63,563 bases of DNA, filler included, from Folioceros fuciformis (GCA_049999805.1; 31 parts of 31 records of this genome joined end to end with filler, not necessarily neighbours in it), one strand, 5' to 3'; counted from the first letter of the whole stretch, positions 8,969 to 53,547 are shown. Notes: a model not told the origin generated them from the letters alone. Numbers and translations are program-made.

Positions 8969-10021
8969 GAAAGTGAAGAAGTGAGTGTAGCCAGTGCCAG
9001 GCGGATTCCTAGTGGTCTTCGGATTCTTGTTGGTGGCGAGTACCATTGTTCCCCTAACAAGAAGAAGAAGGAGAAGAAGAAGAATTGTATGATGGTGCAC
9101 TTGACGGCATTTCGCTCTGTGGGACTAGGTACTTCACAACTTTGTAGCAAGCCTAGCATGTTTTCCCTGCACTCCTGCACACTCTTCATGATGAGCACGT
9201 TGTACACGTGCTTTGCAGGGTCTCGTCAACTCCTTCTCCTTACCAATACTGCCGTATGTATATGATGCTGTACAGTGCAGGTGAAAGCACATCGGTAGCC
9301 AGTATGCCGAGGAGTATCAAGGCACAAGAGCTTGGCAGTTCACAGGATGCAGGTGAAACTAGCAACCCCAATTAGAATCCAGGCAGTGCGAGGCACATAT
9401 CTAGACTTTTACTTAACGGCAATTGCTTGTCTGGTCATATCCAGGCCCGCGTTGCCGTTTCGGCCTTCAAGATACCTACTGACCCAACTGCGTGATGAGA
9501 AACAGAGACCGTGATACCATGGCTCGCTTAAAAATATCTTGGGGTATGTAGGTTGACATGNNNNNNNNNNNNNNNNNNNNNNNNNNNNNNNNNNNNNNNN
9601 NNNNTTAATTAATTAANNNNNNNNNNNNNNNNNNNNNNNNNNNNNNNNNNNNNNNNNNNNATACCATGGCTCGCTTAAAAATATCTTGGGGTATGTAGGT
9701 TGACATGCACTTAACGTTGACAAGCCTGAAATGAACATCTTGTTTTTCCTATGGCAGCTGACAAGCACTTAACTGTTTTGTATATCTAGAGTGAAACATA
9801 AAGTTACCATCTAATATCCGTCACATGGTCGATTGGTCTGAAGCACCAGTCCGGTCGCGCACAGGTATTATAGGACGGGTCACCCCTTCAGGCAGGACGG
9901 CTCACGGTTCACCCCTTCAGGCTGCTGTGGTCAGACATACGTTTGTACAGTCTACCCGGCCGGGGATCTGGCTCGACGAGACTTTTGTTAAGAGTCATCT
10001 TCCGACAGCGGTCCCTGAACG

Positions 10022-10691
10022 ATGGCCACAGTTTGGCAACCGGACCTGTTGTCGACCCAACAAATTGGAATTGGTGTGTGTACAAGGACTCTACTAGGAA
10101 CCCCCGCTCACCTCAGCTTCGGGAGTGAACCCTTTGCAAACAAAGGCTCCAGGTGCAGCAGTGTGAGGAGCCCAGCACTTCCACCTCCGAGAACGAGAAC
10201 GTGTGTGGGCAGGGACGGGTTTTCCGACGATGCTGGTAGTTGCCAGGAGCAGCAGGAGCACTTGTGGCAACAACTTTTTCTGGACCCTACCATGTGGTGG
10301 GATAACAGACAAGACAAGAGCTCCAATTCCCCTCACTTCCGGCGTAAGGTGTCCGGCGAGGTGCTGCGGTTGGACAACATAATTAAGCCAGCATGGGTTG
10401 ATGACAAGCTCGTCTCCTTGGATATGCAGATGGATCACGGTTCCGCTCTTTCCATCTCCAGCTCTCCAGATGATCCTGAACCTGAAAGGCGTACAGGTGG
10501 TGAAATGGGCTCCAGGGGCAGAAGTGCAAGAAACCCAGCACTTCCACATCCAATGAGCCATGGAGTCTCTTCTTTCGAGTGCAGCTCTCTGTATAAGCGT
10601 GGATCCGGCAGGCGTGCAGAATTGGAAACGGGCGTCGTAAGTGCTGCAACCGTGAGCATGTTATGTCATCAGGGGAAGCTTTCTGAGGCCG
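10022..10691 (+). CDS. Probable PPR protein N-terminus: transit-peptide-like region, OSB-type PDF motif, start of helical repeats (3'-partial)
   Basis: LWQQLFLDPTMWWDNRQDK...SPHFRRKVSGEVLRL...PAWV resembles the OSB PDF motif (WWDNR..K...PDFKHK.TGEALWL...P.W). The frame ends in MLCHQGKLSEA, typical of the helix preceding PLS repeats, and is open to the contig edge. Confidence 0.72.
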
Positions 10692-10791: not shown

Positions 10792-12919
10792 ATCTCCTAA
10801 TAGGGCTGTGGATGAGCAGGTTCCAGAGGAGATGTGGTGTGGAAAGAAGCCGTCATACAAGCATCTACGAGTATTTGGCTGCGAGGCATACTACCATGTT
10901 CCGAAGGAGTTTCGGGACAAGTTGGCACCCAAGTCCAAGAAATGTATTTTTCTTGGCTATGGTGAATCTGGTGAGATGGGATACCGTCTATGGGATCTAG
11001 AAGCCAAGAGGATGGTTCGCAACAATGACGTGTTCTTCAATGAGACCAAGATGCACAAGAAGCCTACTCCAACTGTGGAAGTGCGACGCATGGTCTTTCA
11101 AGAAGATGGACTTGACCGTCTCGCGCAGGTTGAACGTCGTGCTGTGCAGGAACAAGTTCCTCCACTTGTAGAAGAGGAGAGAGTGCAACTAGCTCCGGTC
11201 GAGGCGCCAGTACTTCGTAGGTCAGGAAGGATCTCACGTCCTCCTAACATGTATGTTGCATCTCTTGATTATGTCATGCTGACGGATTGTGGGGAACCCT
11301 CTTGTTACTAAGAGGCCATGTCAATGACTGACAAGGGCAAGTGGGAGAAGGTGATGCAGCCGCAGATGGATTCGCTCCATAAGAACCAAACTTGGGAGTT
11401 GGTTCGGTAGCCTAGGGGCAAGAAGGCGTTGCCATGCAAATGGGTGTATAAGATGAAAGACATACCCCATTATGGCAAACCCAAGTACAAGGCACGATTG
11501 GTTGCTAAGGGTTTAAAGCAACAACAAGGTATTGACTTTAATGAGATTTTCTCACCGGTTGTCAAAATGACCACCTTGCGATGTGTTCTTGGTCTGGTTG
11601 TGAGGAACGACATGGAACTTGTCCAGATGGATGTGAAGTCGACATTTCTGCATGGTGATCTTTAGAAAGAGGTATACATGCAGCAACCAGAGGGTTTCAT
11701 TGAGAAGGGCAAAGAGAATCTAGTGTGCAAGTTAAAGAAGAGCCTTTATGGTTTGAAGCAGGCACCCAGGGACTGGTATTTCAAGTTCCACTCATTTATG
11801 TTTTCTCAAGGCTACAAACGTAGTGATGAGGATCATTGCCTCTATACGAAGCAAGCTAAGGATGGAAGCTTGCTCATTCTGGTCCTCTATGTGGATGATA
11901 TGCTAATTGCTAGGACTAACAGTGATGAGATTTCAGCGTTGAAGTCAAAGTTGAATGGTCGTTTTGACATGACAGACTTGGGAGAGGCAAGCCATATTCT
12001 TGGTATGCGGATTCGTTGAGACATACAGAAGCATTCGCTTTACTTGTCTCAAACTGAATACATTAACAAGATGCTTCAACGTTTCAATATGAAGAAAGGG
12101 AAGGTATTGAGTACTCCATTACCTCCATATGTGAAACTTTCAAGCAAGGATTGCCCAAGCTCTGCGGAGGACAAAGCTGTAATGGAGAAGGTTCTATACT
12201 CATTAGCTGTAGGGAGTTTGATGTATGCAATGATTGCTACACGTCCTGACATTGCTTTTGCAGTGGGAGTGGTTAGCAAGTTTATGTCAAACCCTGGCAG
12301 GAAGCATTGGGAGGCAGTGAAAGGAGTTATGAGGTACTTGAATGGTACAAAAGCTTTGTGCTTATGTTTTGGTAGTGAAGATGCATCTGTCGTGGGATAT
12401 ACGGATGCTAATTATGTAGGGGATATGGACAAAAGGAGGTCCACATCAGGTTATGTCTTCATGTGCACAGGAGGAGCAGTCTCATGGCGATCTCGTTTGC
12501 AATCGTGCATAACGCTATCTACCACAGAGGCTGAGTATGTTCTAGCCATTGAGGCGTGCAAGGAAGCCATGTGGCTTGCTCGTTTAGTGGGAGATTTGGG
12601 GATCAAGGTTGAGCTTCCAGTGTTGCATTGTGATAGCTAGAGTGCTATTCAATTGGCAAAGAATCCAGTGTTTCATGCGAAGACCAAACATGTGGAAGTG
12701 AAGTATCACTTCAATCGAGAGGTGTTGGAAGACAAGAGGGTACAACTTGTCAAAGTTCACACCAGTCAGAACCCTGCAGATGTTCTTACCAAGGGGCTCT
12801 CTTCGGAGCAATTCACACAAGCTCGGACGCTCATGGGCATGAGGTAGACCACTCTCCTATGAAGGTAAATTGGCCTTTAAGGGGGAGGTCGTAAGGTTAT
12901 TAAAGCCCAATGTGCTTAG
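10792..12919 (+). mobile_element. Copia family B integrase C-terminus, RT, RNase H, PPT and start of 3' LTR
   Basis: [43 protein letters not shown] followed by LTR-B at 12890; several stops. Confidence 0.95.
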
Positions 12920-13712: not shown

Positions 13713-15855
13713 ATTCAGTAAACCAAATCGTGCAGCGGTAGTGTGATCGGAAGAGATGAACAAGGAATGGAGTAGACTGAACAATTATGGGGAGGGACGC
13801 CCGTGGCGAACCTAGAGTGTACCCAACCGTCATGTCCAACGGTCGTGTCGTAACAATGTGACTATTCAGATGGTGCCTAGTGAGATGGCCCTAACCCTAA
13901 TTAACTAACCAGGATAAGGTTGTTCTAGAGTTAACTAGACCTACTATCATACTCCCACTCAGACTTTTCCTAGGTTCGGTCTCCTATGCGATCTGATCAG
14001 CGATGGACTAGACTGCCATCTAGGATGCTACCACGAGCGTGATCCTCTTGTGCATGTTTAAAAAAACTAGTAGCTGTTTCTTGCAAGTGGAGATTGAAGT
14101 CGTCTTTCTTCAAACTCAGGTCAGAGGATCGAAGACCAGTGTCGTCTTCACACAGATTCCTGGGTGTCCTCAATTCTCTATGCTCCTTGAGTCTGCTCGG
14201 ATTGATGACTGTGGCCACCTTTTTGTGTTTGATGTAGTCTAGCTAGTGTAGCTCGTCCTGAGACGGCCTCTTTGCCTGCTCGAGTGAGGGCTCCATACTC
14301 GCTTTCTGTGGGGCTGAGGCAGATGTTGGGAAGAATCTTACATGACCACGAAACAGCAGCGCCTGCCAGCATGTATACGTACGCTGCTACACTCCTGCGT
14401 GAATCAGGGTTTGCAGCCCAGTCTGCATCCGACCAGCCCGTCAATATCAGTTTTGAAGATCCCGAGGTTTTGTAAGTTAAATCGAGGTCCTTCGTCCCTA
14501 GCAAGTATCTGTAGATTCTTTTCACAGCTAACCAATGGTTCCTGCCCGGATTTTGAGAGAACTGCGCAACTTCCTAAGTGGCCTTGCTTATGTCAAAGCG
14601 TGTCCAAACACTCAGGTATATCAAACACCCTACAGCTGCCTTATAGGGGATAGTTTCCATATCTTTCCTTTCTTGATCAGTCGTTGGCTGATCATCTGCT
14701 GTTAGCTTAGTGCCCACGGCCAGTGGTGTGTTCACAGGTCGTGCATTAGCTAGATTAAACCTAACAGAGATGTCATGTATGTACTTGGACTGATGAAGGA
14801 TGATTGTTCCTGCAGCTCTATTCCTCTCAACCTGGACTCCTAAACAGTAGCTTAGATCACCTAGTTGTTTCATCTTATATTCCTTGACGAGCTTCTGTTT
14901 GATGTTGGCCATGAGTGATTTACTGGTTGCGGCTACCATAAGGTCATCAACGTACAATGCAATGATGACCATGCCTAAGTCATTCAACAGGACATACATG
15001 TTAGGGTCAGAGTCTGTATTGACAAAACCGAGCGACAACACAAAGGCGTTGATTCTGTTGTACCAAGCTCTCGGAGCCTGTTTGAGTCCGTAGAGGGCCT
15101 TGAGTAATTTGCAAGCTTTCTTTTCCTTGTTCTTTTGTACGTATCCTTGGGGTTGACTAACGTAAATTGTCTCTTCCAGGTCCCCATAGAGGAAGGCCGT
15201 GGTTACATCCATATGCTCAAGCTCTGAATTGAGTTCAGCGGTCAGAGCGAGTAAGAATCTTACAGTTGAAGTTCTGACGACGGGAGAGTACAGTTCATGT
15301 TCGAGGTAGTCAATTCCATTCTGTTGCCGGAATCCTCTCGCGACGAATCTAGCTTTGTACCTATCAATCGTGCCATCTGCTTTGAACTTCTTCTTGAACA
15401 CCCATTTGGTGTTGATTGCTCTACGACCCTGAGGAAGATCCTCAAGTATCCATGTTTTGTTTTCCATTAGAGAAGCGTATTCTTCGTCTGCCGCTTTAAC
15501 CCACTTTTCCTTCTCGGGACTACTCATGGCCTCATTCCAGTCTAGAGTTCCAGAGTCCTCTGCAGCAACTGTTAGTACTTGTGCCAAGTGTCCATGATCG
15601 GATGTCAAATTGGACTTCGAGGAACGAGGATGAATTGGAGCCGAGATTGTCGCTATAGCAGTGCTAGGTCTGCTGTTCCAGTACTTAGAAGGGTTGAACG
15701 GGGGCTGTGACCACTCATCCGGGTTATGAGTGTGGAGCCTGGATGATCTCCGGAGTGTGGGTAACTCAGGGGATTCGGTTTCATTTTCTGAATCAACCAT
15801 TTCCTCAGCTGGTGGTACTTCTTCTTCCTCGTGCTCATGAGTTGAGTCTGAATGC
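13712..15855 (-). mobile_element. Copia family E RT-RNase H, PPT (about 13951-13960) and 3' LTR (13712-13949)
   Basis: ORF 14574-15800 with YKARFVARG and ALYVDDL; GWSDADW; GAGTGGGAGTA|TGATAGTAGG. Confidence 0.9.
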
Positions 15856-15955
15856 NNNNNNNNNNNNNNNNNNNNNNNNNNNNNNNNNNNNNNNNNNNNT
15901 TAATTAATTAANNNNNNNNNNNNNNNNNNNNNNNNNNNNNNNNNNNNNNNNNNNN

Positions 15956-17740: not shown

Positions 17741-20700
17741 TTAGCAGCGAGGAGGCAGATGAACTAACAACCAAATCAGGGAGCATAGGCTCCCACCTCC
17801 ACACAAACTAGATAAATGCTCCAATTGCTTCTTAGCATCCTTGCAGTAACTTGTAAGATGACAAAGTCGTAGGCTTTTCAAATGTTGATAGTGCTTCAAC
17901 TTGGGCAAGGCCTTTGTTAATATGTCAGCTATATTCTTGTCTGTAGGGACATAATCCACCTTAACAACACCACGCCCAACCAAGTCTCTGATGTAATGGT
18001 GCTGAATTTCTATGTATTTTGTTCTAGCATGAAACCTCTGGTTTGCAACAAGAGCCAAAGCAGACATGTTATCACACAATAGAGGAGTTGGGCTCATCTG
18101 CTGTTGCCCCAAATCTGTAAGGAAGGTCCTTTCCCATTCTGCTTCCTTTGAAGCATCTATTAAGCTCTTATATTCTACCTCTGTAGACGAGAGGGCGATA
18201 GATGCTTGCTTTTTGCAACTCCAGTTTATGGCAGCATTTGCTAAAAGGAAGCAATATGTAGAGAGACTTCTCTTGTTATCACTATCTGATGCTCAATCAG
18301 CATCTGTGAAACCTCGTAAGGTAAGTTGCTTCTCTCCACTGCTTTTATAGCATAAGCCATAGTATTGAGTGCCTTTCAAGTAACGGAAGACTCTTTTGGC
18401 AGCTACCCAATGAGCGCATCCAGGATGCTCCAGGAACTGGGAAAGTGTGCTTACATAATATTGTATATCAGGACGTGTCCAATTCCCACCAAAGATCAAA
18501 CTCCCTTCTGCATGTCTATAAGGAACATTAGTGATTTCTTGTTTCTCTGCTTCAGACTATGGGCACTGTAGGCTTGTTAGTTTAACACCCATGGCTGATG
18601 GTGTAGTTGCTGGTTGTGCTTGATCAAGCTTAAACTTGGTCAAGATGTCTTGTATGTACTAATATTGGTGTATCATCAAAAGTCCTTCAGATCTGATGCA
18701 AAGCAACTGTATGCCTAGGCATAATTTTAATTCCCCTATGTCTTTCATTTCGTACTTGCTGCTTGGCATGGACTTAACTTCTTCTAACGGCTTATTACTT
18801 TTGGTAGCTAAAATCAAGTCATTGACGTAGAGGGCAAGGGCAACATATTCTTGTCCTCTTGCTAGCCTGTAAACATTACTGTCAGCTGCACTTTGCTTAA
18901 ATGATCTGCTTAGAAGGTACAGGTGGATGTTCAGGTACCAAACTCTACCACTTTGCTTCAGACCATAGATGGTCTCTCAGAAGTTTGCATACTCTCTTAG
19001 GGTAAGTTTTAACTTCATAGCCCTCGGGTTGAGTCATGTAAAGGTCCTCGTCTAGTGCCCTATATAGAAAAGTGGTGCAGACGTCCATTTGGTATAGTTC
19101 CAGGTCATACTCTGCTGCAAGGGCTAAGATCATCCTAATTGACTGCGATCTTACAACAGGAGAGAATGTTTCTTGATAATCTAAGCCTTTAGCCTGTGTG
19201 AAGCCTCTGGCGACTAATCTCGCCTTATACCTAGCTATCTCACCCTTCTCGTTTAATTTTAGTTTAAAGACCCACTTGTAGGAAATGGGTCTTCGGTCAA
19301 ATGGAAGGTCAACCAATTTCTAGGTATGGTTCTTTACAAGACTGTTAAACTCATCATCTACAGCAAACTTCCATTTTTCCTTCTCTGGACTTGTGAAAGC
19401 TTCTGTGAGTGACTTGGGTTCTAAGTGCACTGTTGTGGATGCAGCATGAGCAGCTTGGGCATATGAGGTGCGAAAATCAACAGACTCATATATGGGTTCC
19501 TTCCATTGTTCAGGTGGTGGCGTGTTTCTAGTAGACCTTCTCAAAGGAGGATCACGCTCCACAGGATCAACAGCCTGTTCATATTCTAGTTGTCCTTCGA
19601 AATCAGCTGCTGCAACAAATAAATCCAGGTCATCTTCATCAGCAGGTATCTCTAAGCCATGTCCATTTATAAGATCATGAATTTCATGTTCTTGGTTATT
19701 ATCGTTAGGATTGACATCATCATTCAGATTTCCTGGATTTGTAGCATCTTTATTGGCAATAACATCCTAACCATCATCAACAACATCTTGGCCATTTCGA
19801 ACAACATCCTGACCATTTGCAACTGGTTGTATCGCAAGAGTTGGAGCTGATGGAGGGAAATAATCACCGGCTGCTTCATCATGGAAGTCATAATCTGAGG
19901 TTTCATTGCTGATGGGTATGGCTCCCTCTGAAGTCAGTGTGGGATCCTGATTAGTATGTGTAGGATTAATAGGCTCGATGAATGTGACAAAACGGGCTAC
20001 CACCACTTTGTCATTATCAGGGTCATAGAGCTTATAGGCCTTCACATGATCACCGTATCCGATAAAAATGAGAGCTTGGGCTCTAGCATCCAGTTTCTTT
20101 CTCTTCTCCTTGGGGATGAGAGCAAAAGCTTGGAATCCAAATACTCGTAAGTGTAGGAGGCTAGGTTTCCGCTTCCATACAACTTCATAAGGAGTTTTGG
20201 AAGGGACAGAATTGGAGAAGAGGCGATTCAAGACATATGTGGCAGCAACAATAGCTTGTGCCCAGTAGATCTGAGAAAGACCAGCCCATATCAGCATGCT
20301 ACATGTCATGGACAACAATGTTTGGTTCTTTCTCTCTGCAACTCCGTTCTGTTGGGGAGTATAAGGGACTGTCAACTGACGTTGTATCCCTCTCTCTTCA
20401 AGGAAAAGATCAAAGGCTAAGTTGTTGAACTCATACCCATTGTCTGTCCGCAGTTGCTTTAGAAGAAGGCCAATTTGTCTCTGAACCGTAACTAACCACT
20501 CTTGGAAAATGACAAATGTGTCACTTTTCAGGTGCATCGAATAAGTCCATGTATGCCTGGAGTAATCATCAGTCAAACAGAAGTAGTAAAAGGAGTCTTC
20601 TAGGGAGGGGACATGTATCTTTCCTGAAATGTCGGCATGAACCAAATCAAGCACAGCCTCTGCCTTGAATGATGCTACTGAAGGGAAGGGCTGTTGTTTC

Positions 20701-20815
20701 TGCTTGGCTGGAATGCATGCTTCACAAGAAGGTAGATCTTTGAAACATCTGGGAAGTGGTTCTTGGTGACAGCCTTAGAGAGACATATCAATAAGCTTGT
20801 TTTTATTAACGGGAC
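17741..20815 (-). mobile_element. Copia pol (pre-integrase, integrase, RT, RNase H), decayed
   Basis: [46 protein letters not shown]. Confidence 0.95.
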
Positions 20816-21557: not shown

Positions 21558-24406
21558 CAAACAGAAGGGAATTATCCATCAATTAACAGTTCCTTACCAT
21601 CCTCCTCAGAATTCCTACGCTGAGCGTTACAATCGAACTTTGTAGGAACGCACTCGAGCAACTCTTACCCTGGCTGGTTTAACTCGGGGTTACTAGGCTG
21701 AAGCTATGGATGCAGTTAATTATGTTGCCAATCGGTTACCATTAAAGCCCCTCTATGACACCACTCCATATCAGCGTTGGACTAGAAATAAACCCCGTAT
21801 AAGCCATCTTCGTATTTTTGGTGCAATAGCCTACGCATATATACTTGCAGACAAATGGCACAAAATGGACAATAAGGCTACAAAGCTTATCTTCGTCGGC
21901 TATTCCAAAACTGTAAAAGGATATAAGCTTTTTAACCCTACAACCAGAGAACTTACATTGGCTCGTAGTGTTAGCTTTAATGAAGCGTTTATTCTCCAAT
22001 CTCATGCACGTTCCATCACCAGTCATGATCCTCTTGCCCCAGGATCAATATACGGTCACTCCTCTTTAGCTGAACCATCTGATCTGCCTATAGACATTGT
22101 TAATTATGATGAAACAGAACTCTCAACATTACCTGGTGATCCGTTAGAACATGAAGATATTACTGCAGTTGCAGCTGATCCAGTAGCTGCGGATGATTTT
22201 CAGGATGTCCATGAAGATGTTCAGGCACATTAGCAGCCTACTGATGATACAAGTGAAGAATTATAAAACAGCCTGGACATTCAAACAGATTTTTCTGAAT
22301 CCCCAAACACTATCAATGTTCAAGACACAATTAATCCCCTAGAAACGACGCCAGACCAACAACCAGTACCCTTTCGGCGTTCATCTCGCCCTCATAGACC
22401 ACGTTTTGCGTGGCTTGACCCGGTTTATGTCCCTGGTGACTCTTTCGTCACTCGCCCCACAGTGGACGTTGTTTTCTCTGATCATTCGCGTGAAAGCCTT
22501 GCACACATGACCAAACAGGAACATAGTGCATTAGCGATTTTTGATCCTCCTAACACTCCTCTCACTTACCAAGAAGCCATGCACTCTCCCCAGAAAATAG
22601 AGTGGCAAAAGGCAATAGCTTTTGAATATCAGTCTCTCATAGAAAATGATACCTGGAAGCTGGTTGACTTACCTGTAGGTCGACGAGCCATCACTTGCAA
22701 GTGGGTCTTCAAACTTAAGTTGAATCCCGATGGATCAGTTGCAAGGTACAAAGCCCGTCTTGTCGCTAGGGGTTACACTCAGATCTATGTTATAGATTAT
22801 AATGAGAAGTTCAGTCCCGTTGTTAAGCCCACGTCCATGCAGATCCAGCTTTGTTATGATCTTCAACATCATCTCCTCGTCCATCAAATGGACGTTAAAA
22901 CAACATTCCTGAATGGGCCCCTGGACGAGGTCATTTACATGCATCAGCCTGAAGGCTATATTATTGACGCTAGTAAGGTATGCGAACTAAAGAAATCACT
23001 TTACGGTTTGAAACAGTCAGCAAGGATATGGAATGGTCGCGCTGACAAGAAACTTCGAGCTATGGGGTTTACTCCCCTGACTGCAGATTGCAGTGTATAT
23101 GTCCTTAGAGGACTGCCCAAAAACAGATGTAGAAAAGCAGGAGATGTCAACTATTCCTTACCGGGAGGTCGTCGGCAGTTTGTTGTATCTCGCTGGGTGG
23201 ACTCGACCAGACATCTCCTAGGCTACAGGCATTGTGTCACGCTACCTGTCCAATCCGGGCAAAAGGCACTGGATAGCCGTTAAGCGGATCCTTAGATACC
23301 TACAAGGCACTAGGCATCTCTAGCTCACATATCAAAAGGCAAGTGAATTTACATTACACTATTTCTCTGATGCTGATTGGGTTGGGGACCAGGATGGTAG
23401 AAGATCTATCGCTGCTTATTGCACACTTCTTTGCAGCTCCGCGATTTCTTGGCAGAGTAAGAAACTTTCCATAGTTAGTCTTAGCTCTATGGAGGCACAA
23501 TATAGTGCTCTTTCGCTCGCAGCTCGAGAGATCAGCTGGATTTGGCAATTTCTCACAGAGGTTCACTAGCCACAATTGAAACCAACAGTCCTTCACTGCG
23601 ATAATCAGTTCGCCATAGCTCTATCAGTCAACCCTGTTTTACACGCTCGCTCAAAGAACATAGAAACCTATTTTCATTACATGAAGCTTGTAGTGGAAGA
23701 AAGAAGATACATCTACAGTATGTACCAGCGGCAAAGAACATTGCAGATGTGCTCACAAAGGGGCTATCCAGATTGTTACACAAGAAGCATTGTTCCTCGT
23801 TAGGGTTACTGAACAATGGCACTTACCCTAAGGGGCAGAACATGCGTCGCCAGCGAGAAGTTTGAGGCGGGGAGGCTCTTGTAAACAACGCATTGTTTGG
23901 GTCAGCCATGCACGCTTGCTGTACTGGATCACGGAACCTTACCTAATCGACAATAGCGGCTGGTTACTTGTAGACGCACGTTGTGTCTCTATCAGCTGAT
24001 GGTATTTCCAGGTATGCTGTGAGAGGGCGCACCCTCTACCTCCTTATCGGGCGCTGTCACTAAGTGCCTCACAATATGGTGATGCTGATCCATTGAGGAC
24101 GTCCTACGAATGCTGAGAGTACGTTTACCACCTTAACCACTGGTGGCAGGCAAGATTAAAGACTGGCTGAGAGCCACCGACACATAAGCCCTATCCTCTC
24201 TAGCTAGGCGTTGTTTGGTTTGAGAGGGGGTATTGCATAATAAGGCTTAGCAGCTATTTATGTAACAAACCAAAAACCCCTAATAGGGTTAGGGCACACA
24301 GAGCAAAACGTTATTCAGTTTAAGTCCCTTCTAGTTGTGTTTCATAAATATAGTTTTTAATTAGGTTAGGTTGTAAAAACGGTTACAACACCTCTGAGTG
24401 TTTTTC
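21558..24406 (+). mobile_element. Copia integrase-RT-RNase H, PPT (24221-24230) and 3' LTR start, decayed
   Basis: [45 protein letters not shown]. Confidence 0.9.
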
Positions 24407-26475: not shown

Positions 26476-27675
26476 GAAATGGGGGACCTGGCGAGGACCT
26501 GTACGAGACATAAGTTGAAAGGCCAGGCAGATGCTGACCAGCCATGTCATTGCGTAAAGATCCATAGCACGGCCCAAGGCTAAGCACCGCTGCTGAACTG
26601 TGACTTGCGGTGCTGCTGTAGAATGGGTGTGAAAACCCATCACTCGCTCTTGTTCCTCCACATTGAGTTCCTCCCACTGTTGTGTGTCAATGTTCAACAA
26701 CATGCCAGCTCCTTGTTCTCTATATGCATGAGAGATAGCTCACCAGCGTAGGAAGGGTACTGCGTGGCTGTCCTGGGACATTGGTGCTATACCAAGGTTT
26801 CCTCTCTGCAGCATGGACAGGCCGAGGCTGGTGATTGCTGTCCAGGACTGTGACCAGGCTCAAGGATGGGTCCTGAGTGGTACCAGCCAACACCAATCCT
26901 AGCAAGGGTTGGGGTGCAAGGTTGGTCCAAAAATTACGCAAGCGATGTGCGTAACTGCCCACCTGTACAGCATCAAGTAACAAAGGAACTCCCACATGCT
27001 GCTGGATCATAGCCATGTCCTGTCGAACCTGTAGTCGAGAATCCAGCTGGGCTGGAGTGTTCTCCAAAATGTAAAGCACAGGTAGGGTTGCGGGCCTGAA
27101 TCCACACCAAGATGCGTCGCAGATCCCAGAAAAGAGTAGAGCGCATATCTTGCAAACATGCTCCAGTGCCAGCTGAGGAAAACCCTTGGCATTCCCAACC
27201 AGCCACTACGATGTCTATGGGTGGTAGGCGTTGAATGTGCCCAACCTGGATGTACTGGACATCCTGTGGAAGGGCTGTAAACATGGCAGCCGTGGCAATG
27301 AGTGGCAGCTGTGTTGGAAATCGGGATTGAAGTCCCTGAATTCGAAAAGCAGCTAGCTTCCTAGCTGTGGGACACTTGTCACAATAAATGTATTGGGCCA
27401 CAACCAGCCCATTCTGCACCATGGCTTCCAATCCAGTGCATAGGCCCCCAAATAGTTCCAGAACTGTTAAGCCAGGTGCAGAGAGTGTCCATGCTATGAT
27501 GGACTGATTGACATCGCCGAGCGTTGGTTGCTCATCTGGTGCAGGAGGTGGCTGCATCCTTTGAAGGGCCAATTGCACATGTGGGATGGCCACATGCAAG
27601 ACGTCTGCAAATGGGTCACCCATGTCATTTTTCAACAACACATCCCTCAAGCACGAGGTTGCTACTAATGACTGT
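26476..27675 (-). pseudogene. DNMT3-like C5-cytosine DNA methyltransferase domain, intronless, two frameshifts (about 27080 and 26733)
   Basis: Motif I VLELFGGLCTG, IV GWECQGFS (catalytic Cys at 27189-27191), VI ILENT, VIII AHRLRNFWTN, IX EQERVMGF, X RCLALGRAM, in canonical I-X order; frames are open at both contig ends. Confidence 0.9.
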
Positions 27676-28159
27676 NNNNNNNNNNNNNNNNNNNNNNNNN
27701 NNNNNNNNNNNNNNNNNNNTTAATTAATTAANNNNNNNNNNNNNNNNNNNNNNNNNNNNNNNNNNNNNNNNNNNNTCATTATGGCTGATGGCCACATATA
27801 GGAAAGTATAAACCGCTATTCGATTTGGGCAGTTTAACTGTTCGTAACTACACTAACTACGATATTTACTATTTATTATTACGTGTGCTTAAGCAGGATA
27901 AACCGAAACGTGCCTTAAAAACGTTGTGCATCGGTCCGTGGTGTATGTCAGCGGTACCCCAACGCGCGGTGCACCAACAACAAAAGTTGCCAAGGTCGAG
28001 ATGTGCTGATTTGAAGTATGGGCAAAGTTTTTCTTTTATCTTGTTGAAAGATGAAGAGAGAGAGAGGTCGTGCTGTGGTATCGGACAGGGGATTTAAGGC
28101 ACTGGAGCATGAGGCAGCGGGGCAATGCATGAGGAGAACTTTGCGGAGAAGGGAAAGCA

Positions 28160-33121: not shown

Positions 33122-33265
33122 NNNNNNNNNNNNNNNNNNNNNNNNNNNNNNNNNNNNNNNNNNNNTTAATTAATTAANNNNNNNNNNNNNNNNNNNNNNN
33201 NNNNNNNNNNNNNNNNNNNNNGTGGTATGCTGAGGAGCTCAGCATGAGCAGGGTCCAGCACTTTT

Positions 33266-34944
33266 TTGAAAACCATAGCTTTTGATGCTCATAGGTGCCT
33301 TATGACCACAACCTCACAGCTGAATGCGCTAATCAATAGCTTTAGCAACCTTAGTTTGCAGCCTGCACCTATCAGAAACATGGCAACACAACAGTCAGTT
33401 TCCTTTAGTTCAGATGTCAAGGACAAGGATAGGTTTAGAGGTACTGGTTACTCTATCTGGCGAGTACGGATGAAAACCATCCTCACAGCACGTGGTGTCT
33501 GGTCGAGTGTCGATGGTACTTTTAAGAAACCTGACCTAGTAGCCAAACCTGATGAGTATGCTAAGTGGGAGCATAATAATGGAGTGGCTATGGCAGTCAT
33601 TGTTAATGGGCTTGATGCAGTTTTGATTCCCAACGTTGAATTCCTCACATTGGCTGAAGAAATTTGGAATCAGCTTGAAAAGACCTACCACACAACCACA
33701 ATGGCAACATTGTCCGCTGTCCGTATGGAGTTCTACACATTGCGGATGAAAGAAGGTGACAAAATGGCTGCACATACTAGCAAATTTCGTCATCTTCGAG
33801 CTCAGATTCAGTCCATCACGAAAACACAGATGACGGAGTCTGAGGCTGTCTCCCAGCTGCTCACGAGCCTGCCACCCTCTTACCAATCTTTTGTCACCAG
33901 TTACCAGAATGGCCCTGTTGCAGCAGCTGCTGCAGGAGGGACACAGGCTGCAGCCATCACCATGGAAGACGTAATCGGAGCCCTCTACCAAGAGGAGCAA
34001 ACCCGCTTGACTTCGGCAGGCTTACACAAACAATCCAAAGCCGAAAGGGCATTACCTGTGAATTTTCGCCCCAAAGGAAAGGGCAAATTCAGAGGGGGAA
34101 ATTCAGCACAAACCAAGGACAGGCCTGAACCCTCAAGCTCAAAACGACCAGGCACATGCAATTGGTGTGGCATACCTGGCCATTGGGCACGCGAGTGCCG
34201 AAAACGCAAAGCTGGTGAGCCCCAGAAGCAGGCGAAACCTGCTGCAAGTGTTGGAGTGAAGGACAAACCTGTCGAAAAGGCACCAGTGAAAATTCTCACC
34301 ATATGCTTGTCAAGTTCGACACATGATGATGAGAGCTGGTTCCTCGACTCCGGGGCTACCACGCACATCTGCAAAAAAAGGGAGTTGTTCACTTCCCTCA
34401 ACCTTGTTCATGTCCATGAAAAGGTCCTCCTTGGTGATGAGCAGTCTAGGACTAGTCTGCATATTGAAGGCAGAGGCACGTGTGTTTTCAAATTGAAAGA
34501 TAACACAGACCTCACACTCGAAGATGTTCTCTTCGTACCCAACATGGCTAAAAATCTCATGTCCATGAGTCAGCTCATGCGTTTATGTACCTTCACCATG
34601 TATGCAGATTCTAAGCACTGCTTATTCTATAGAAGTACATCTCCTAGTAGATGTGTCTTTAAGGGGATTCTTGACAATTCCCTTTACCGCTTGGACATAA
34701 CCTGTTCACAACAGACAGCCGGTCAGCATGCTGTACATTCCACTGGTGTATCCTCACTTAGACCTGAGCAGGTAGCAGTCTTGTGGCATGCGAGATTAGG
34801 TCACGTGAATAGACGAAAATTGATAGATATGTCTATAACTGAATGCCATAGAGAACCCCTGCCCAAATGTTTCAAAAACTTACCTCTATGCGAGTCGTGC
34901 ATATTAGCTAAGCAGAAAGAATCACCTTTCCCTAATGCACCTGC
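33266..34944 (+). CDS. Stop-free copia gag-protease-pre-integrase ORF (3'-partial; likely ATG 33380)
   Basis: FRGTGYSIWRVRM, LLTSLPPSY, CNWCGIPGHWAREC, WFLDSGATTHIC, WHARLGH...CESC. Confidence 0.93.
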
Positions 34945-35044
34945 NNNNNNNNNNNNNNNNNNNNNNNNNNNNNNNNNNNNNNNNNNNNTTAATTAATTAA
35001 NNNNNNNNNNNNNNNNNNNNNNNNNNNNNNNNNNNNNNNNNNNN

Positions 35045-48626: not shown

Positions 48627-50544
48627 AGTAGCATCGTCAGGATGAACACCGGCAGCTAACATCTCCTCAAAACGAGCTAGCGCCTTGCGACCTTCATCAC
48701 AAGCACCATACCCAGCAATCAGGGCATTCCATGTAACCACATTCTTTGTGCTCATGCTGTCAAAAACCTGGCGTGCATCTTCCAGCTTACCACATTTTGC
48801 ATACATGTCCACCAGGCAGGTTCCCACCACTACATCATCCAGCACACCTCTGTTGACAATCTGTGAGTGCAGTTCCCTGCCCTTCTGCAAGGCACCAGTC
48901 ATTCCACACGCCTTCAGAAGGCAGGCAAAAGTAACACAGTCAGCCAAAACGAGCCCTGCCTCCTCCATCTGTCCATACACAACAAGCGCCTCTTGGCCGA
49001 GTCCTTGCTGTGCATACCCAGCAATCATGGCTGTCCATGTCACCACATCCTTCGAGGCCATGCCGTCGAAAACCTGACGTGCATCTTCCACCTCACCACA
49101 TTTCGCATACATGTCCACCAGGCAGGTTCCCACCACTACATTATCCAGCAGTTCTCTTTCGACAATCTGTGAGTGAAGGTCCCTGCCCTTCTGCAAGGCA
49201 CCAGTGCTCGCACACGCCTTCAGAATGCAAGCAAAAGTAACATCATCAGCCAAAACGACGCCCGCCTCCTCCATCTGTCCATACACAACAAGGGCCTGTT
49301 GGCGGAGTCCTTGCTGCGCAAACCCAGCAATCAGGGCATTCCATGTCACCACATCCTTCGACACCATCCTGTCAAAAACCTGGCGTGCATACTCCACCTC
49401 ACCACATTTTGCATACATGTCCACCAGGCAGGTTCCCACCACTACATTATCCAGCAGATCTCTTTCGACAATCTGTGAGTGCAGCTTCCTGCCCTTCTGC
49501 AAGGCACCAGTGCTTCCACACGCCTTCAGAAGGCAAGCAAAAGTAACCGTGTCAGCCAGAACGAGGCCTGCCTCCTCCATCTGTCCATAGACAACAAGCG
49601 CCTCTTGGCCCAGTCCTTGCTGTGCATACCCAGCAATCAGGGCCGTCCATGTCACCACATCCTTCGAGGCCATGCTGTCAAAGACCTGGCGTGCATCTTT
49701 CACCTCACCACATTTTGCATACATGTCCACCAGGCAGGTTCCCACCACTACATCATCCAGCAGACCCCTGTGAACAATGTGTGAGTGAAGCTCCCTGCCC
49801 TTCTGCAAGGCACCAGTGCTTCCACACGCCTTCAGAAGGCAAGCAAAAGTAACACGGTCAGCCAAAACGAGGCCCGCCTCCTCCATTTCTGCATATACAA
49901 CAAGCGCCTCTTGGCCGCGTCCTTGCTGTGCATACCCAGCGATCAGGGCCGTCCATGTCACCACATCCTTCGTGTCCATCCTGTCAAAAACCTGGCGTGC
50001 ATATTCCAGCTCACCACATTTTGCATACATGTCCACCAGGCAGTTTCCTACCAGTACATCATCCAGCAGACCTCTGTGGACAATCTGTGAGTGAAGCTCC
50101 CTGCCCTTCTGCAAGGCACCACTGCTTGCACACGCCTTCAGAAGGCAGGCAAAAGTAACACGGTCAGCCACCACCAGCCCCGCCTCCTCCATTTCTCCAT
50201 ACACAACATGTGCCTGTTGGCAAAGTCCTTGCTGTGCATACCCAGCGATCAAGGCATTCCATGTCACCACATCCTTCGTGTTCATGCTATCAAAAACCTG
50301 GCGTGCATCTTTCATTCGGCCACACTTTGCATACATGCCCACCAAGCAGTTGTTAACAAACAAGTCAGTACGGAAGCCACTGCGCAACACGTCGCGGTGC
50401 ACTGTTCTGCCAGATTCTAAGTCGGCACCATATGCACAAGCTTGAAGGGCGGCTACAAACACATAACCATTCGCCTTCACTTCTGACCTACGCATTTCAT
50501 GGTACAGTTGTATGGCCTCCTTCGGCTTCCCGTGCTTAGCATGT
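48627..50544 (-). CDS. PLS-class PPR protein, internal portion (partial at both ends)
   Basis: Stop-free across the contig; five 102-aa P(36)-L(35)-S(31) triplets (VVTW[N/T]ALIAGYAQQG / VTFACLLKAC / CLVDMYAKCG) followed by a P2-like motif. Confidence 0.97.
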
Positions 50545-51249
50545 NNNNNNNNNNNNNNNNNNNNNNNNNNNNNNNNNNNNNNNNNNNNTTAATTAATTAA
50601 NNNNNNNNNNNNNNNNNNNNNNNNNNNNNNNNNNNNNNNNNNNNCTGTCGTGAAATTGTGGCAAAAATGGACTTATAGTAGAGCATCATGGTGAACGTGA
50701 TAGTTTAGTGGAATTCAGTTGATTAGATAATAGGTGATTAAACTAACTCAACCTAAATTAGGTAAATGGCTAAAATACTAGCCATGGCTACTTGCCCACT
50801 AGAAGCACGTGGGCTCATACAGCCCATGGAAAACTGCTTGGAGGGGCACCACACATAAAAACAAAACACAGCGAGGAAAAAGGTAGTTGTCGAAGTCGCT
50901 CATGAGAGGAACCACCGGACGACCTAAACCTTTTTTTTTGCTGTTCACTAGCCGTCTATGAAAGGAAGAGCTATGCAGATTGAGGGTGTAAGGGAGATGG
51001 TGGCATCCCGCTAGTGACTTACCAACTCTGGGCAGCCCGACGAGGGCAGTCCCCTTTTTGCAGCTTTACGACACGGAGTGAGCGATGGCGCATGTGAGCA
51101 GCCTAACATCTTAAGGCATGGACAATCTTTTTGTTCTCTTTTTCTGAGTGCACAAGACATTAGCCTTGCAGCTGATGGACTGAATTGAAGTGCTCACAAC
51201 AGCTGATACCGGGAGCACGACATTCCTGGTCCAAGAGGGTACTCCATTT

Positions 51250-52829
51250 GACATGGGCGAGCCCCAGTCATACCAGGAGGCTATTAATTCTCCAAAGAAG
51301 GACAAATGGCATGCTGCTATCGAATCTGAATATCAGTCCATTATGGATAATAAGACATGGGTGCTTGAAGACTTACCACCTGGCAGGAAGGCGGTGACTT
51401 GTAAGTGGGTATTCAAATTGAAGCGTGCTGCTGATGGAACAATTGCGAGATACAAAGCTAGGCTGGTTGCCCGAGGCTACAGCCAGGTTGAGGGACTTGA
51501 CTACCAGGAGACGTTTTCTCCAGTAGTCCGAGCTACCTCCATTCGCACCTTGTTAGCAATAGCTGCCCAGCATGATTACCTATTGCAACACATGGATGTT
51601 AAAACAGCCTTCTTAAATGGCGACTTGGAGGAGACTATATACATGCGCCAACCAGAAGGGTATGTCGATCCCAAGCATCCAAACAAGGTATGCAGATTAA
51701 TCAAAACTCTGTATGGGTTAAAGCAATCACCACGTGAGTGGTATAAGAGAATTGACACATATCTGAAAAAGTGTGGTTTTGTCCAAAGTAGTGCTGATTC
51801 AAATGTTTACAAACTTCATGATAAAAATGGTGTTGCCTATCTAGCCTTGTATGTAGACGATGCAGTCATAATTGCTAGCAACCCGGCACAAATGAACAAG
51901 GTGAAAGGAATCCTTTCATCTGAGTTCTCCATGACTGACTTAGGTCAACTAACCTGGTTCTTAGGAATCCAGATCAAGCAGAATCTGGGTAATCACACCA
52001 TCTTTATCCACCAGGCACAATTTGTTGTTCAGGTCCTTGCACGTTTTAGATTACAGAATGCAACACCTGCTACAACACCCATGGCAACAGGAGAGAAACT
52101 TACATTAGAACAGTGTCCAAAAACTGAGCAAGAGCGGCTGGAAATGGCAAAAGTCCCCTATAGGCCGGCAGTGGGAGTGCTTATTTATTTCAGGAACTGG
52201 ACTCGGCCCGAGTTATCACATGCTGTAGGAGTAACCTCCCAGTTCCTCTCCAACTACGGCTCGGCACACTGGCATGCTGTTCAGAGATGCATGCGCTACC
52301 TTGGTGGCACACCCAGACTTGGTCTTTTGTACAAGCAGCGACCAAGTAATTTGCTACTGACCTGCTATTGTGATGCGGATTGGGCAGCCGACTCTGACAG
52401 TCGCCGTTCTATTTCTGCACACTGCTTAATGCTCGGACAGGATGAGCATGAAGCTACAATTATTTCATGGCATAGTAAAAAGCAGCCAGTAGTGGCTCTG
52501 TCCTCAACGGAGGCAGAGTACATCTCTGCAACAACGGCATCCCAAGATATTATACATGGCAGAGAATTATTAGCCTCACTTGGCGAAGCTCAGCAGGCTC
52601 CAACACTTCTTCTGAGTGACAACCAATCTGCCATAGCTCTTGCCCAGAACCCGGTTATGCATGCCCGGACAAAACACATCGAAATCAAGCATCATTTTAT
52701 CCGACAAGTAATTTATGATGGGCATGCTAATCTGCAGTTTGTCTCAACTCACAACAACATTGCAGACCTGCTCACAAAGGCACTTCCCAGAGACAAGCAT
52801 GAGAAGTTTGCATCTGCAATGGGGTTAGT
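51250..52829 (+). CDS. Stop-free copia RT-RNase H
   Basis: Within ORF 51190-52878: [40 protein letters not shown]. Confidence 0.95.
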
Positions 52830-53547
52830 TGTGGAGACAAAACCCCGGGCACTGATTGCCGAAGGGTTCCACCTTTAGTGGCCACACTTATCCCACTGTT
52901 GTTGAGACATTGGGTTTCGTTCCCACGAAGGAGCGATGGGGTTCCTTGCTGCTGTGGATGGAGGGTCGGACTTGATCGACTCGATGACGGATTCGAGGGC
53001 TCCCCTCCAGCTCCGATCAGGCGTAGGACAGGTCTCGCTGTCCGGCGGTCAGCTGCACCTCTCTCGGTGCCCACAAACTCACTCCAGTCACTACAACGAC
53101 TCTAACATCTCAGATCTGCGACTTCTCTCACACACTTCACTCACTCTCTCACTCTAGCACCAACACCAGCAACTACCAGCAACCAGCAACGACACGACTA
53201 CCTTCTACACTTCCCTACTGACTCCTCCTACCCAGCAAGAGTCACGAGACTAACTCCAAACAAAAGGACGAAGGGAACACACTCCCCTCTTGGGTATCTC
53301 CTCCCCACAACCTTACTAGACGCCATGAGACATGGCCGGCCTACAACAATTGACCAAGCAAGGAACAAGAGTGGACAGGTTGAGAGAAAGACACACCCTT
53401 TACAATCAAGAGCTAGGGGCAAGCCCCTACACCCTGGTCATTACACCTTGTGATCCTACCAGACACTATACAACCGGCAACACGCTGCACGCGATCCTAC
53501 CAGACACTGTACAGCCGGCAACACGCTGCCTGCGATCCTACCAGACA
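52830..53547. mobile_element. LTR family A (reverse orientation) inserted at the end of copia RNase H
   Basis: Starts TGTGGAGACAAAACCCC; contains 41-bp repeats from 53452. Confidence 0.88.

What the first reader, a model, noticed from the sequence alone, without database searches (positions are those of the whole stretch)
10022..10691. OSB-type PDF ssDNA-binding motif at the N-terminus of a probable PPR editing factor
Seen: after a Ser/Arg/Thr-rich N-terminus, 10262-10423 encodes LWQQLFLDPTMWWDNRQDKSSNSPHFRRKVSGEVLRLDNIIKPAWV, and the frame continues to MLCHQGKLSEA at the contig end. Established: PDF motifs are the C-terminal modules of plant organellar ssDNA-binding (OSB) proteins, where they follow an SSB-like fold. 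None precedes the motif here, and PDF has become PHF. Inference: a domain-shuffled PDF-PPR fusion that could tether an RNA editing factor to organellar nucleoids or add nucleic-acid binding. The PPR repeats themselves lie beyond the contig.
Basis: partly seen in the sequence, partly recalled or inferred. Interest (0 to 1): 0.72.

Follow-up and report, generated by a model that had tools for sequence, protein, structure and literature searches.

The report
OSB-type PDF motif heading a PPR gene
This 1-kb plant contig holds the start of a gene whose protein begins with a DNA-binding "PDF" motif otherwise known from organellar OSB proteins and then runs into what looks like a pentatricopeptide-repeat RNA-editing-type protein, an architecture that recurs in many database proteins but that I could not find described in print.

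Summary
Window 10022-10690 is one open frame of 223 codons that ends at an assembly gap. Residues 76-134 (10247-10423) are a true OSB-type PDF motif: 210 library proteins match only this stretch (best E 6e-34). 49 of the 150 hits I examined carry an SSB domain followed by PDF copies, and some are named OSB1/OSB3 by NCBI.

No OB fold precedes the motif. 15 of the 150 hits have the motif at the N-terminus followed by PLS-class PPR repeats, with E motifs and in one case a DYW domain. The window's motif falls in a tree clade of PPR-linked motifs. The frame ends in VSAATVSMLCHQGKLSEA, a PPR-like first helix, and paralogue contigs continue it as VGALESLAQ. So the PDF-PPR fusion is real and recurrent, although this gene's own repeats lie off the contig.

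The locus belongs to a multi-copy family: hundreds to thousands of contigs at 85% identity or more in public runs. This copy is unusual. It has H for the PDF aspartate and R for a 95%-conserved tryptophan, and the paralogues keep D and W, so it may be a relaxed or decaying copy.

The function (binding single-stranded nucleic acid beside the PPR tract) is inferred, not tested. I found no paper describing PDF-PPR proteins.

The parts
9661..10691 (.). The contig that holds the finding (1031 bp), bounded by artificial N44-TTAATTAATTAA-N44 spacers
   Evidence: N-run table; sequence
10022..10690 (+). Open reading frame, 223 codons, open at its 3' end (protein P0001). This is the 5' part of the gene
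   Evidence: in-frame stop TGA at 10016-10018 just upstream
10022..10246 (+). Residues 1-75: a presequence-like N-terminus rich in Ser/Thr/Arg/Pro and predicted disordered. Organelle targeting is inferred from composition only
   Evidence: Composition; pLDDT of 63 or less per 10-residue block and no secondary structure up to residue 70; no Pfam family
10247..10423 (+). OSB-type PDF motif, residues 76-134
   Evidence: phmmer hits; 59-position profile alignment, 74.5 bits; confident helix / short strands / helix model, pLDDT 83-95
10334..10336 (+). CAC = His105 at the Asp position of the P-D-F signature (D in 95% of 356 motif copies, H in 1%)
   Evidence: Paralogue contigs read CCT GAC TTC here (loose ends behind 10319)
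10367..10369 (+). CGG = Arg116 at a Trp position (W in 95% of 358 copies, R in 1%)
   Evidence: At 10367, C>T (TGG) in all other contigs covering the place in X1-X3 (22, 20, 21) and in nearly all the depth there in X4 (76 contigs; 377865.8 of 379024.5) (table 3)
10424..10636 (+). Residues 135-205: a low-complexity linker, predicted disordered. Its length varies among paralogues
   Evidence: pLDDT 46-59. Joints skipping 10431-10643, 10433-10607, 10437-10625 and 10441-10670 in other contigs (table 5)
10145..10188 (+). Direct repeat copy 1 (GSRCSSVRSPALPPP), within the presequence
   Evidence: the repeat finder family D1: 44 nt, 84% identical to 10508-10551
10508..10551 (+). Direct repeat copy 2 (GSRGRSARNPALPHP), within the linker. 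A piece of the presequence is duplicated behind the motif
   Evidence: 'goes back' joints 10482/10492/10496 -> 10145 (table 5c)
10637..10690 (+). Residues 206-223, VSAATVSMLCHQGKLSEA: first helix of a PPR-like motif, cut by the contig end
   Evidence: Aligns to ...MYGKCGRISEA of P0002 (E 0.27) and to the S-motif helix of 10 PDF-PPR proteins in MAFFT. 7 of the 11 PDF-PPR proteins printed carry LCxxGxLxxA (in one, LCCxxGxIxxA) shortly after the motif. Paralogue contigs continue (A)VGALESLAQ (table 7). Too short for Pfam

Best explanation
This is the 5' portion of a nuclear, intronless-looking gene of a land plant (Streptophyta) for a PLS-class pentatricopeptide-repeat protein. Its N-terminus carries a presequence-like region, one OSB-type PDF motif and a disordered linker, and then the PPR array begins just as the contig ends. 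It belongs to a multi-copy PDF-PPR gene family. Relatives in this family end in E motifs and, in at least one case, a DYW deaminase domain with a KPAVA box, the type I recall as DYW:KP.

Shown: the motif is homologous to the PDF motifs of OSB proteins. No OB fold precedes it. The architecture recurs in relatives, and the locus is multi-copy.

Inferred mechanism: in OSB1 the PDF motif is reported to be the ssDNA-binding element. PPR-linked PDF motifs keep exactly the same invariant Trp/Asp/Arg/Lys/Pro-Asp-Phe positions as OSB-linked ones. The N-terminal PDF module therefore most likely gives the PPR protein a sequence-independent grip on single-stranded nucleic acid. That could be RNA just 5' of the PPR footprint, because N-terminal repeats bind the 5' side, or ssDNA of the transcribed nucleoid.

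This particular copy has H for the signature Asp and R for a near-invariant Trp. It also differs from the paralogue majority mostly at codon positions 1 and 2. Its PDF module is therefore probably weakened, and the copy may be under relaxed constraint.
For:: 210 hits, best 6.1e-34, all on the motif.
of the 150 listed hits, 49 have a Pfam SSB domain N-terminal to the motif copies (the OSB architecture). 15 have the motif at the N-terminus followed by PPR repeats; 13 of these exceed Pfam cut-offs, while P0048 and P0129 fall below. P0002, P0083 and P0140 have E-motif hits (above Pfam's cut-off in P0083 and P0140, below it in P0002), and P0083 has DYW_deaminase at 4e-32.
hits P0030 and P0040 are named OSB1-like and OSB3 by NCBI.
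the window motif keeps W7, P14, W17, D19, R21, K24, P29, F31, L40, P47, W49 and L54 of the 59-position profile.
its five nearest motifs by identity (52-55%) are four PPR-linked ones plus one short fragment.
it sits in a 16-row clade (SH-like support 94) with 9 PPR-linked, 0 SSB-linked and 6 unassigned rows. The PPR label needs 5 changes on the tree against a mean of 17.0 in shuffles (0 of 500 shuffles as low).
PPR-linked and SSB-linked motifs share the same invariant columns.
and table 7: the PPR-like end of the frame, and its continuation VGALESLAQ in 9, 7 and 7 paralogue contigs.
466, 571 and 371 contigs (three runs of organism A) and 6148 contigs (one run of organism B) lie on the 1031 bp at 85% identity or more.
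(passages read): reviews state that the 50-aa PDF motif of OSB1 is sufficient or responsible for ssDNA binding and that OSBs are an OB-like fold plus one to three or four PDF motifs.
Against: The PPR repeats of this gene are not on the contig, and Pfam finds no PPR in P0001 even at E<=10. The case rests on relatives and on 18 residues.
The word-index searches with P0001 found nothing.
The tree has only 57 columns. The query's clade is not starred, and one member (P0027) looks OSB-like.
OSB1 and OSB2 are reported to prefer ssDNA over RNA, which does not favour an RNA-binding role.
D105H and W116R hit two of the most conserved positions. Of the 28 best-supported differences from other contigs inside the frame, 10, 13 and 5 fall at codon positions 1, 2 and 3 (my count table 3; 70 further differences were not shown). 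There is no third-position excess, as expected for a relaxed or dying copy.
A 1-kb short-read contig of a multi-copy family could be a chimera of paralogues. Only about half of its sampled 31-mers are in the best DNA run.
No binding, localisation or editing experiment exists for any PDF-PPR protein that I could find.
Confidence: 0.75

Rival explanations
1. The locus is a decaying or non-functional paralogue (a pseudogene in the making), or a chimeric assembly contig, of the PDF-PPR family. The frame is still open, but the PDF module is crippled and the copy does nothing.
For: H at D30 and R at W41 of the profile, each seen in only 1% of motif copies. All other contigs covering 10367 in runs X1-X3, and nearly all the depth there in X4, read TGG, and paralogues read GAC for the Asp. 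Differences from paralogues fall 10/13/5 over codon positions 1/2/3 among the 28 listed (my count). The linker holds a 44-nt duplicate of presequence DNA that other copies skip. Only 0.51 of the sampled words are present in the best run.
Against: 669 nt are open with a proper ATG (chance about 2e-5). The motif still scores 74.5 bits, inside the 57.9-82.6 range of PPR-linked motifs. Twelve other conserved positions are intact. Each substitution also occurs singly in otherwise complete proteins: P0135 has PHF, and P0021 and P0064 have LR. Most differences lie in regions that are disordered and fast-evolving anyway.
Confidence: 0.35
2. It is a truncated or novel OSB-family gene, with a PDF motif and no OB fold, and not a PPR gene. 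The PPR-like end is coincidence.
For: The motif is OSB-type. No PPR is detectable by Pfam in the 223 residues. Many hits are of unknown architecture.
Against: Nearest motifs and clade-mates are PPR-linked and none is SSB-linked. In OSBs the motif lies C-terminal to the OB fold, whereas here only a disordered presequence precedes it. The tail matches the LCxxGxLxxA / MYxKCGxxxxA helix that follows the motif in the PDF-PPR proteins.
Confidence: 0.05
3. In PPR proteins the PDF module is not a nucleic-acid binder. It acts as a protein-protein or oligomerisation module, for example recruiting the factor to OSB/nucleoid or editosome partners.
For: The model is a small two-helix unit with short strands, with no match to any solved nucleic-acid-binding fold (best Z 4.3). 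AtOSB2 is reported to be a tetramer. Many conserved residues are Trp/Phe/Leu, which could form a core or an interface.
Against: The reviews read attribute ssDNA binding of OSB1 to the PDF motif itself. Conserved Arg/Lys at profile positions 21, 24, 32 and 34 are kept in both contexts.
Confidence: 0.15

Closest known systems
PDF motif of plant organellar ssDNA-binding proteins (OSB1-OSB4 of Arabidopsis; Zaegel et al. 2006, as summarised in PMC6963530, PMC4166229 and PMC6451138)
   Same: A motif of about 59 residues with the same conserved W...P..WWDNR..K....P-D-F-K-H-K...LW....P.WV...L pattern. Direct phmmer hits to proteins that NCBI names OSB1-like and OSB3. Twelve of fourteen near-invariant positions are kept.
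   Different: It stands at the N-terminus behind a presequence with no OB/SSB fold, whereas OSBs have the OB-like fold first and the PDF copies C-terminal. The signature is P-H-F, and the following L-W is L-R. The PPR-linked subgroup tends to have KPxWVD where OSB-linked copies vary.
PLS-class PPR proteins with E/DYW C-termini (organellar RNA editing factors)
   Same: The nearest relatives (P0002, P0037, P0083, P0088, P0118, P0140 and others) are PLS-type arrays with E motifs, and in P0083 a DYW deaminase. The frame ends in a PPR-type helix. Another contig of the window holds a PLS fragment 47-49% identical to P0083.
   Different: As far as I recall, classical editing factors have only a targeting peptide before the first repeat. 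Here a folded PDF module is inserted. The repeats and C-terminal domain of this gene are not seen.
PPR proteins fused to other nucleic-acid modules (RRM-PPR fusions tabulated in PMC13386178; PPR-SMR and PRORP are recalled, not checked here)
   Same: An accessory nucleic-acid-related domain on a PPR scaffold.
   Different: The accessory module is the OSB PDF motif. The passages I read of that 2026 survey do not list it among the fusions, and Pfam has no model for it.

Membership tests
PDF motif (OSB-type) | About 50-aa motif with significant sequence similarity to the PDF motifs of OSB proteins | tested here: met
   (210 hits; for example P0030 at E 2e-11 on its C-terminal motif). P0030 and P0040 are named OSB1-like and OSB3. 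Profile score 74.5 bits (the profile includes the query as 1 of 359 rows).
PDF motif (OSB-type) | Conserved Pro-Asp-Phe signature | tested here: not met
   Pro-His-Phe here (CAC at 10334-10336). D is found in 95% of 356 copies and H in 1%. P and F are kept.
PDF motif (OSB-type) | Binds single-stranded DNA | not testable with these tools
   Reported for OSB1's motif in the reviews read. The fold search gave no informative match.
OSB protein family | SSB-like/OB fold N-terminal to the PDF motif(s) | tested here: not met
   No Pfam SSB in P0001 at E<=10. Only 75 disordered residues precede the motif. 49 of 150 hits do have SSB.
PLS-class PPR protein (editing-factor type) | Tandem P-L-S pentatricopeptide motifs | tested here: inconclusive
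   Only 18 residues of a PPR-like helix are on the contig, and Pfam finds none. 15 of 150 relatives with the N-terminal motif have PPR arrays.
PLS-class PPR protein (editing-factor type) | C-terminal E1/E2 and/or DYW deaminase domain | not testable with these tools
   This lies beyond the contig end, and no genome is held. It is present in relatives: Pfam E-motif hits in P0002 (below cut-off), P0083 and P0140, and a DYW domain in P0083.
PLS-class PPR protein (editing-factor type) | Organelle targeting peptide | not testable with these tools
   Composition only: residues 1-64 have net charge +5 and 2 acidic residues. No targeting predictor is available.

The most novel reading that the evidence does not exclude
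PDF-PLS-PPR proteins are a large, so far undescribed subfamily of organellar RNA-editing-type factors in a non-seed-plant lineage. At least one member carries a DYW domain with a KPAVA box. The N-terminal OSB-derived PDF module anchors these factors to single-stranded nucleic acid, either nascent RNA 5' of the target or displaced ssDNA of the transcribing nucleoid, and so couples editing-site recognition to transcription or to the nucleoid. Pfam has no PDF model, so domain-based surveys of editing factors would have missed the family.
Probability: 0.3. Interest if true: 0.75.

Novelty: new variant of a known kind. Interest (0 to 1): 0.55.

Why it matters
PPR editing factors are normally pictured as a targeting peptide, a repeat array and E/DYW domains. 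A folded, conserved module borrowed from the organellar ssDNA-binding OSB proteins, sitting at the N-terminus of a whole expanded subfamily, would be a new accessory domain for these factors. It also gives an easily testable idea: extra, sequence-independent binding 5' of the target, or tethering to the nucleoid.

The finding has a practical side as well. The PDF motif has no Pfam model, so architecture surveys cannot see it. The 59-position profile built here can be used to tabulate the fusion across plant lineages.

The copy in this window is only a fragment and is probably a divergent family member, so the value lies in the family rather than in this locus.

Tried and rejected
- **Own genome:** none is held, so the gene could not be extended and paralogues could not be fetched as sequence.
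- **The search for homologous proteins with P0001:** both 'longer' and 'near' gave no hit. This reflects word-index insensitivity, not absence.
- **The listing of cluster members:** switched off, so the organisms of the PDF-PPR hits remain unknown to me.
- **ESM Atlas:** best scores were 0.76 and 0.86, PPR clusters of Streptophyta, below the 0.9 level. These are leads only.
- **Earlier findings of the scan:** nothing.
- **PDB sequence search:** none at E<=1. Foldseek: none at E<=1e-3. VIA wide: best Z 4.3, with 0 chains at Z>=5. No solved fold could be assigned to the motif, which does not show that the fold is new.
- **Expression:** no RNA holder is listed. Run X3 is only guessed to be RNA, and contigs cannot show transcription, so nothing is concluded.
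- **Run X4 (organism B):** it has no depth on 9661-9905 and starts near 9991. I considered reading this as the start of a conserved 5' UTR, but dropped the idea because an uncovered part is no evidence.
- **Other PDF motifs in the window:** a six-frame profile scan found only this one.
- **The PLS fragment at 48627-50544(-) as the missing 3' part:** rejected. It starts mid-repeat, does not abut GKLSEA, and there is no way to link the contigs.
- **Literature:** searches for 'PDF motif' with pentatricopeptide, OSB with DYW, WWDNR, PDF domain/OSB-like, and OSB1+PDF+PPR proteins returned no paper that joins the PDF motif to PPR proteins. The only co-occurrence, PMC6963530, treats them separately in the passages I read. 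(OSB, PPR, N-terminal, RNA editing, hornwort) was judged from its listing of 15 of 85 papers only. One search listed papers of which I read passages from two. Zaegel et al. 2006 is not held. Gutmann et al. 2020, recalled, was not looked for. These and other subscription papers and their supplements could hold a description that I could not see.

Full report
**What the window is.** The 63,563-base window is not one locus. It holds 60 runs of exactly 44 N in 30 pairs, each pair flanking TTAATTAATTAA, so it is 31 short contigs strung together. The finding lies on a contig of 1031 bp (9661-10691). No whole genome is held for it. The neighbouring contigs are mostly Ty1/copia retrotransposon pieces, plus one PLS-type PPR gene fragment, so adjacency in the window carries no meaning.

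**The observation.**
- An ATG at 10022, three bases after an in-frame TGA, opens a frame of 223 codons that is still open when the contig stops at 10691.
- Residues 1-75 are rich in Ser/Thr/Arg/Pro/Gly/Ala (42 of 75), with net charge +5 over residues 1-64.
- Pfam finds no family in the 223 residues, even at E<=10.

**Is it a PDF motif?** Yes.
- A phmmer search of 1.84 billion cluster representatives gave 210 proteins at E<=1e-3, 33 at E<=1e-10 and a best hit of 6.1e-34. Every best stretch is centred on query residues ~70-140.
- I scanned all 150 listed hits against Pfam. 49 have an SSB domain. Two of these are below cut-off. One search gave 26 at E<=0.01, of which 14 are at or above the 26-bit cut-off. 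One search gave 21 at E<=1e-3. The motif copies lie C-terminal to the SSB domain.
- Two of my hits, P0030 and P0040, are named 'protein OSB1, mitochondrial-like [Populus nigra]' and 'organellar single-stranded DNA binding protein 3 [Euphorbia peplus]' by NCBI.
- A 59-position profile built from 359 motif copies in 151 proteins shows that the window's copy keeps W7, P14, W17, D19, R21, K24, P29, F31, L40, P47, W49 and L54.
- It has His where 95% of copies have the Asp of P-D-F, and Arg where 95% have Trp.
- AlphaFold2 with a 62-row alignment models residues 71-139 confidently (pLDDT 83-95) as helix 71-87, short strands 92-94 and 106-108, and helix 124-139. Everything else is below about 60.
- No solved structure resembles the model convincingly: no PDB sequence hit, no Foldseek match at E<=1e-3, and a best VIA Z of 4.3.

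**Is it the head of a PPR protein?** The PPR repeats of this gene are not on the contig, so this rests on relatives and on the last 18 residues.
- 15 of the 150 hits have the motif (one to three copies) near the N-terminus, followed by PPR repeats. These are P0002, P0037, P0083, P0088, P0118, P0140, P0074, P0148, P0042, P0021 and P0134; P0054, P0057 and weakly P0048; and weakly P0129.
- They are PLS-type. Pfam E-motif hits occur in P0002 (below its cut-off), P0083 and P0140. P0083 ends in a DYW deaminase domain (4e-32) whose N-terminal box reads KPAVA. I recall this as the DYW:KP type linked to U-to-C editing (PMC11845758 and PMC9478123, abstracts seen), but I did not test it.
- Several short 'unknown' hits (P0059, P0102, P0138) also run into PPR-like sequence by eye.
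- The best hit overall, P0002 (1371 aa), has three PDF motifs followed by a long PLS array.
- By identity, the window's motif is closest to P0118, P0037, P0034, P0083 and P0042 (52-55%). Four of these five are PPR-linked.
- In a FastTree of 341 motif rows it falls in a 16-row clade (SH-like support 94) with 9 PPR-linked, 0 SSB-linked and 6 unassigned rows. The PPR label needs 5 changes against a mean of 17.0 in shuffles (0 of 500 as low). With 57 columns the tree is poorly resolved, and one origin is neither shown nor excluded.
- 7 of the 11 PDF-PPR proteins printed carry LCxxGxLxxA (in one, LCCxxGxIxxA) a short way behind the motif. The window has LCHQGKLSEA.
- BLASTP pairs SSLYKRG...VVSAATVSMLCHQGKLSEA with SEVHKRG...VVLGSALISMYGKCGRISEA of P0002 (E 0.27, not significant alone). 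MAFFT places it on the same S-motif helix of ten PDF-PPR proteins.
- Contigs of public runs that overlap the end of the contig continue, in 9, 7 and 7 records, with T GTT GGA GCC CTG GAA TCT CTG GCG CAG. This reads (A)VGALESLAQ, close to the GQLSEAVDSLDSLVRGG of P0083 (table 7).

**A multi-copy family, and an odd copy.**
- When Logan contigs of four public runs were laid on the 1031 bp at 85% identity or more, 466, 571 and 371 contigs (three runs labelled organism A) and 6148 contigs (a run of organism B) matched, most at 85-99%. These numbers are not copy numbers, but they show many sequence variants of this gene head in at least two species.
- The joints show paralogues lacking most of the linker (for example 10433->10607 and 10431->10643) or part of the presequence (10068->10251).
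- The window's linker contains a 44-nt copy (84% identical) of presequence DNA.
- At 10367, every other contig covering the place in X1-X3 (22, 20, 21) and nearly all the depth there in X4 (76 contigs; 377865.8 of 379024.5) reads T, giving TGG (Trp) where the window has CGG (Arg).
- Behind 10319 the paralogue consensus reads ...CCT GAC TTC CGG CGT, which is P-D-F-R-R. The family therefore keeps the canonical residues, and the window's copy is the deviant.
- Among the 28 best-supported single-base differences inside the frame, 10, 13 and 5 fall at codon positions 1, 2 and 3 (my count table 3; 70 more differences were not shown). This is not the third-position excess expected under purifying selection.
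- Only 0.51 of the sampled 31-mers are in the best DNA run. I therefore rate a relaxed or decaying copy, or a chimeric short-read contig, at about one in three.
- Against that view: the frame is open, the motif scores 74.5 bits, and each of the two substitutions also occurs singly in otherwise complete proteins (P0135, P0021, P0064).

**How it most likely works.**
- Shown: homology of the module to the OSB PDF motif, absence of an OB fold, and the recurrent PDF-then-PLS-PPR architecture.
- Taken from the literature: the PDF motif is the ssDNA-binding element of OSB1, and OSB1/2 prefer ssDNA to dsDNA or RNA. The primary paper, Zaegel et al. 2006, was not readable.
- Inferred: PPR-linked motifs keep the same invariant Trp/Asp/Arg/Lys/Pro-Asp-Phe/Leu-Trp/Pro/Trp columns as OSB-linked ones, so they probably do the same biochemical job, gripping single-stranded nucleic acid without sequence preference. 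Placed N-terminal to a PPR array, which I recall binds RNA with its N-terminal repeats on the 5' side, the module would either add affinity on the RNA just upstream of the recognised site or hold the factor on ssDNA of the nucleoid. A protein-protein role cannot be excluded.
- In this copy, loss of the Asp and of one Trp would be expected to weaken that activity.

**Comparison with what is known, and novelty.**
- The protein is not an OSB, because the defining OB/SSB fold is absent. Its motif is a PDF-family member by homology, although the literal P-D-F is not met. Membership in the PLS-PPR class is likely but could not be tested on this contig.
- Five searches of the held literature found no paper that links the PDF motif to PPR proteins.
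- A 2026 survey of domain fusions among editing factors lists RRM, MORF and RanBP2 fusions, but no SSB or PDF in the passages I read.
- Pfam has no PDF model, which would explain why the fusion has been overlooked.
- The proteins themselves are in public databases, and subscription papers and supplements were not searchable. I therefore call this a new variant of a known kind, and I do not claim it is unknown.

**Verdict.**
- The fusion is a recurrent, expanded family and not a single shuffle.
- This copy is a divergent member and possibly a decaying one.
- A second key residue (Trp to Arg) is also lost.

The function remains inference. Interest 0.55.

Noticed in passing
window 1-63563: The window is an artificial concatenation of 31 short contigs (about 1-3 kb each) joined by N44-TTAATTAATTAA-N44 spacers, so neighbouring features are not physically linked.
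   Followed up: yes
window 48627-50544 (-): A PLS-class PPR gene fragment open at both contig ends (P0265, 655 aa incl. X). It has very regular, near-identical P-L-S triplets and is 47-49% identical to the PPR tract of the PDF-PPR-DYW protein P0083. Whether it also starts with a PDF motif cannot be seen.
   Followed up: partly
window 10792-12919; 14577-15899 (-); 19770-20774 (-); 22267-23280 (+); 33248-34993 (+); 51184-52875 (+): Ty1/copia-type LTR retrotransposon pieces on at least six contigs: gag, pre-integrase, integrase core, SH3-like and RVT_2 domains.
   Followed up: partly
window 26976-27719 (-): An open frame with a weak match to C-5 cytosine DNA methylase (PF00145, E 7.7e-7, residues 161-205 only).
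   Followed up: no
library protein P0043 (1526 aa): A kinesin motor protein (Pfam Kinesin 1.8e-86) carrying PDF motifs N-terminal to the motor (matched at 189-246, E 1.9e-9, three stretches). This is another non-OSB context for the motif.
   Followed up: no
library proteins P0020, P0003, P0022, P0066 and others: Some hits carry very many PDF copies, up to 13 profile matches in one protein, and 9 or more in five proteins. This is far beyond the one to four copies described for Arabidopsis OSBs.
   Followed up: no
window 9875-9893 / 9904-9922 and 9692-9715 / 9750-9773: Short direct repeats in the 5' flank of the gene (19 nt at 95% identity, 24 nt at 79%). Several contigs of organism A also cover the flank at 85-95% identity, so the paralogues share upstream DNA.
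   Followed up: no
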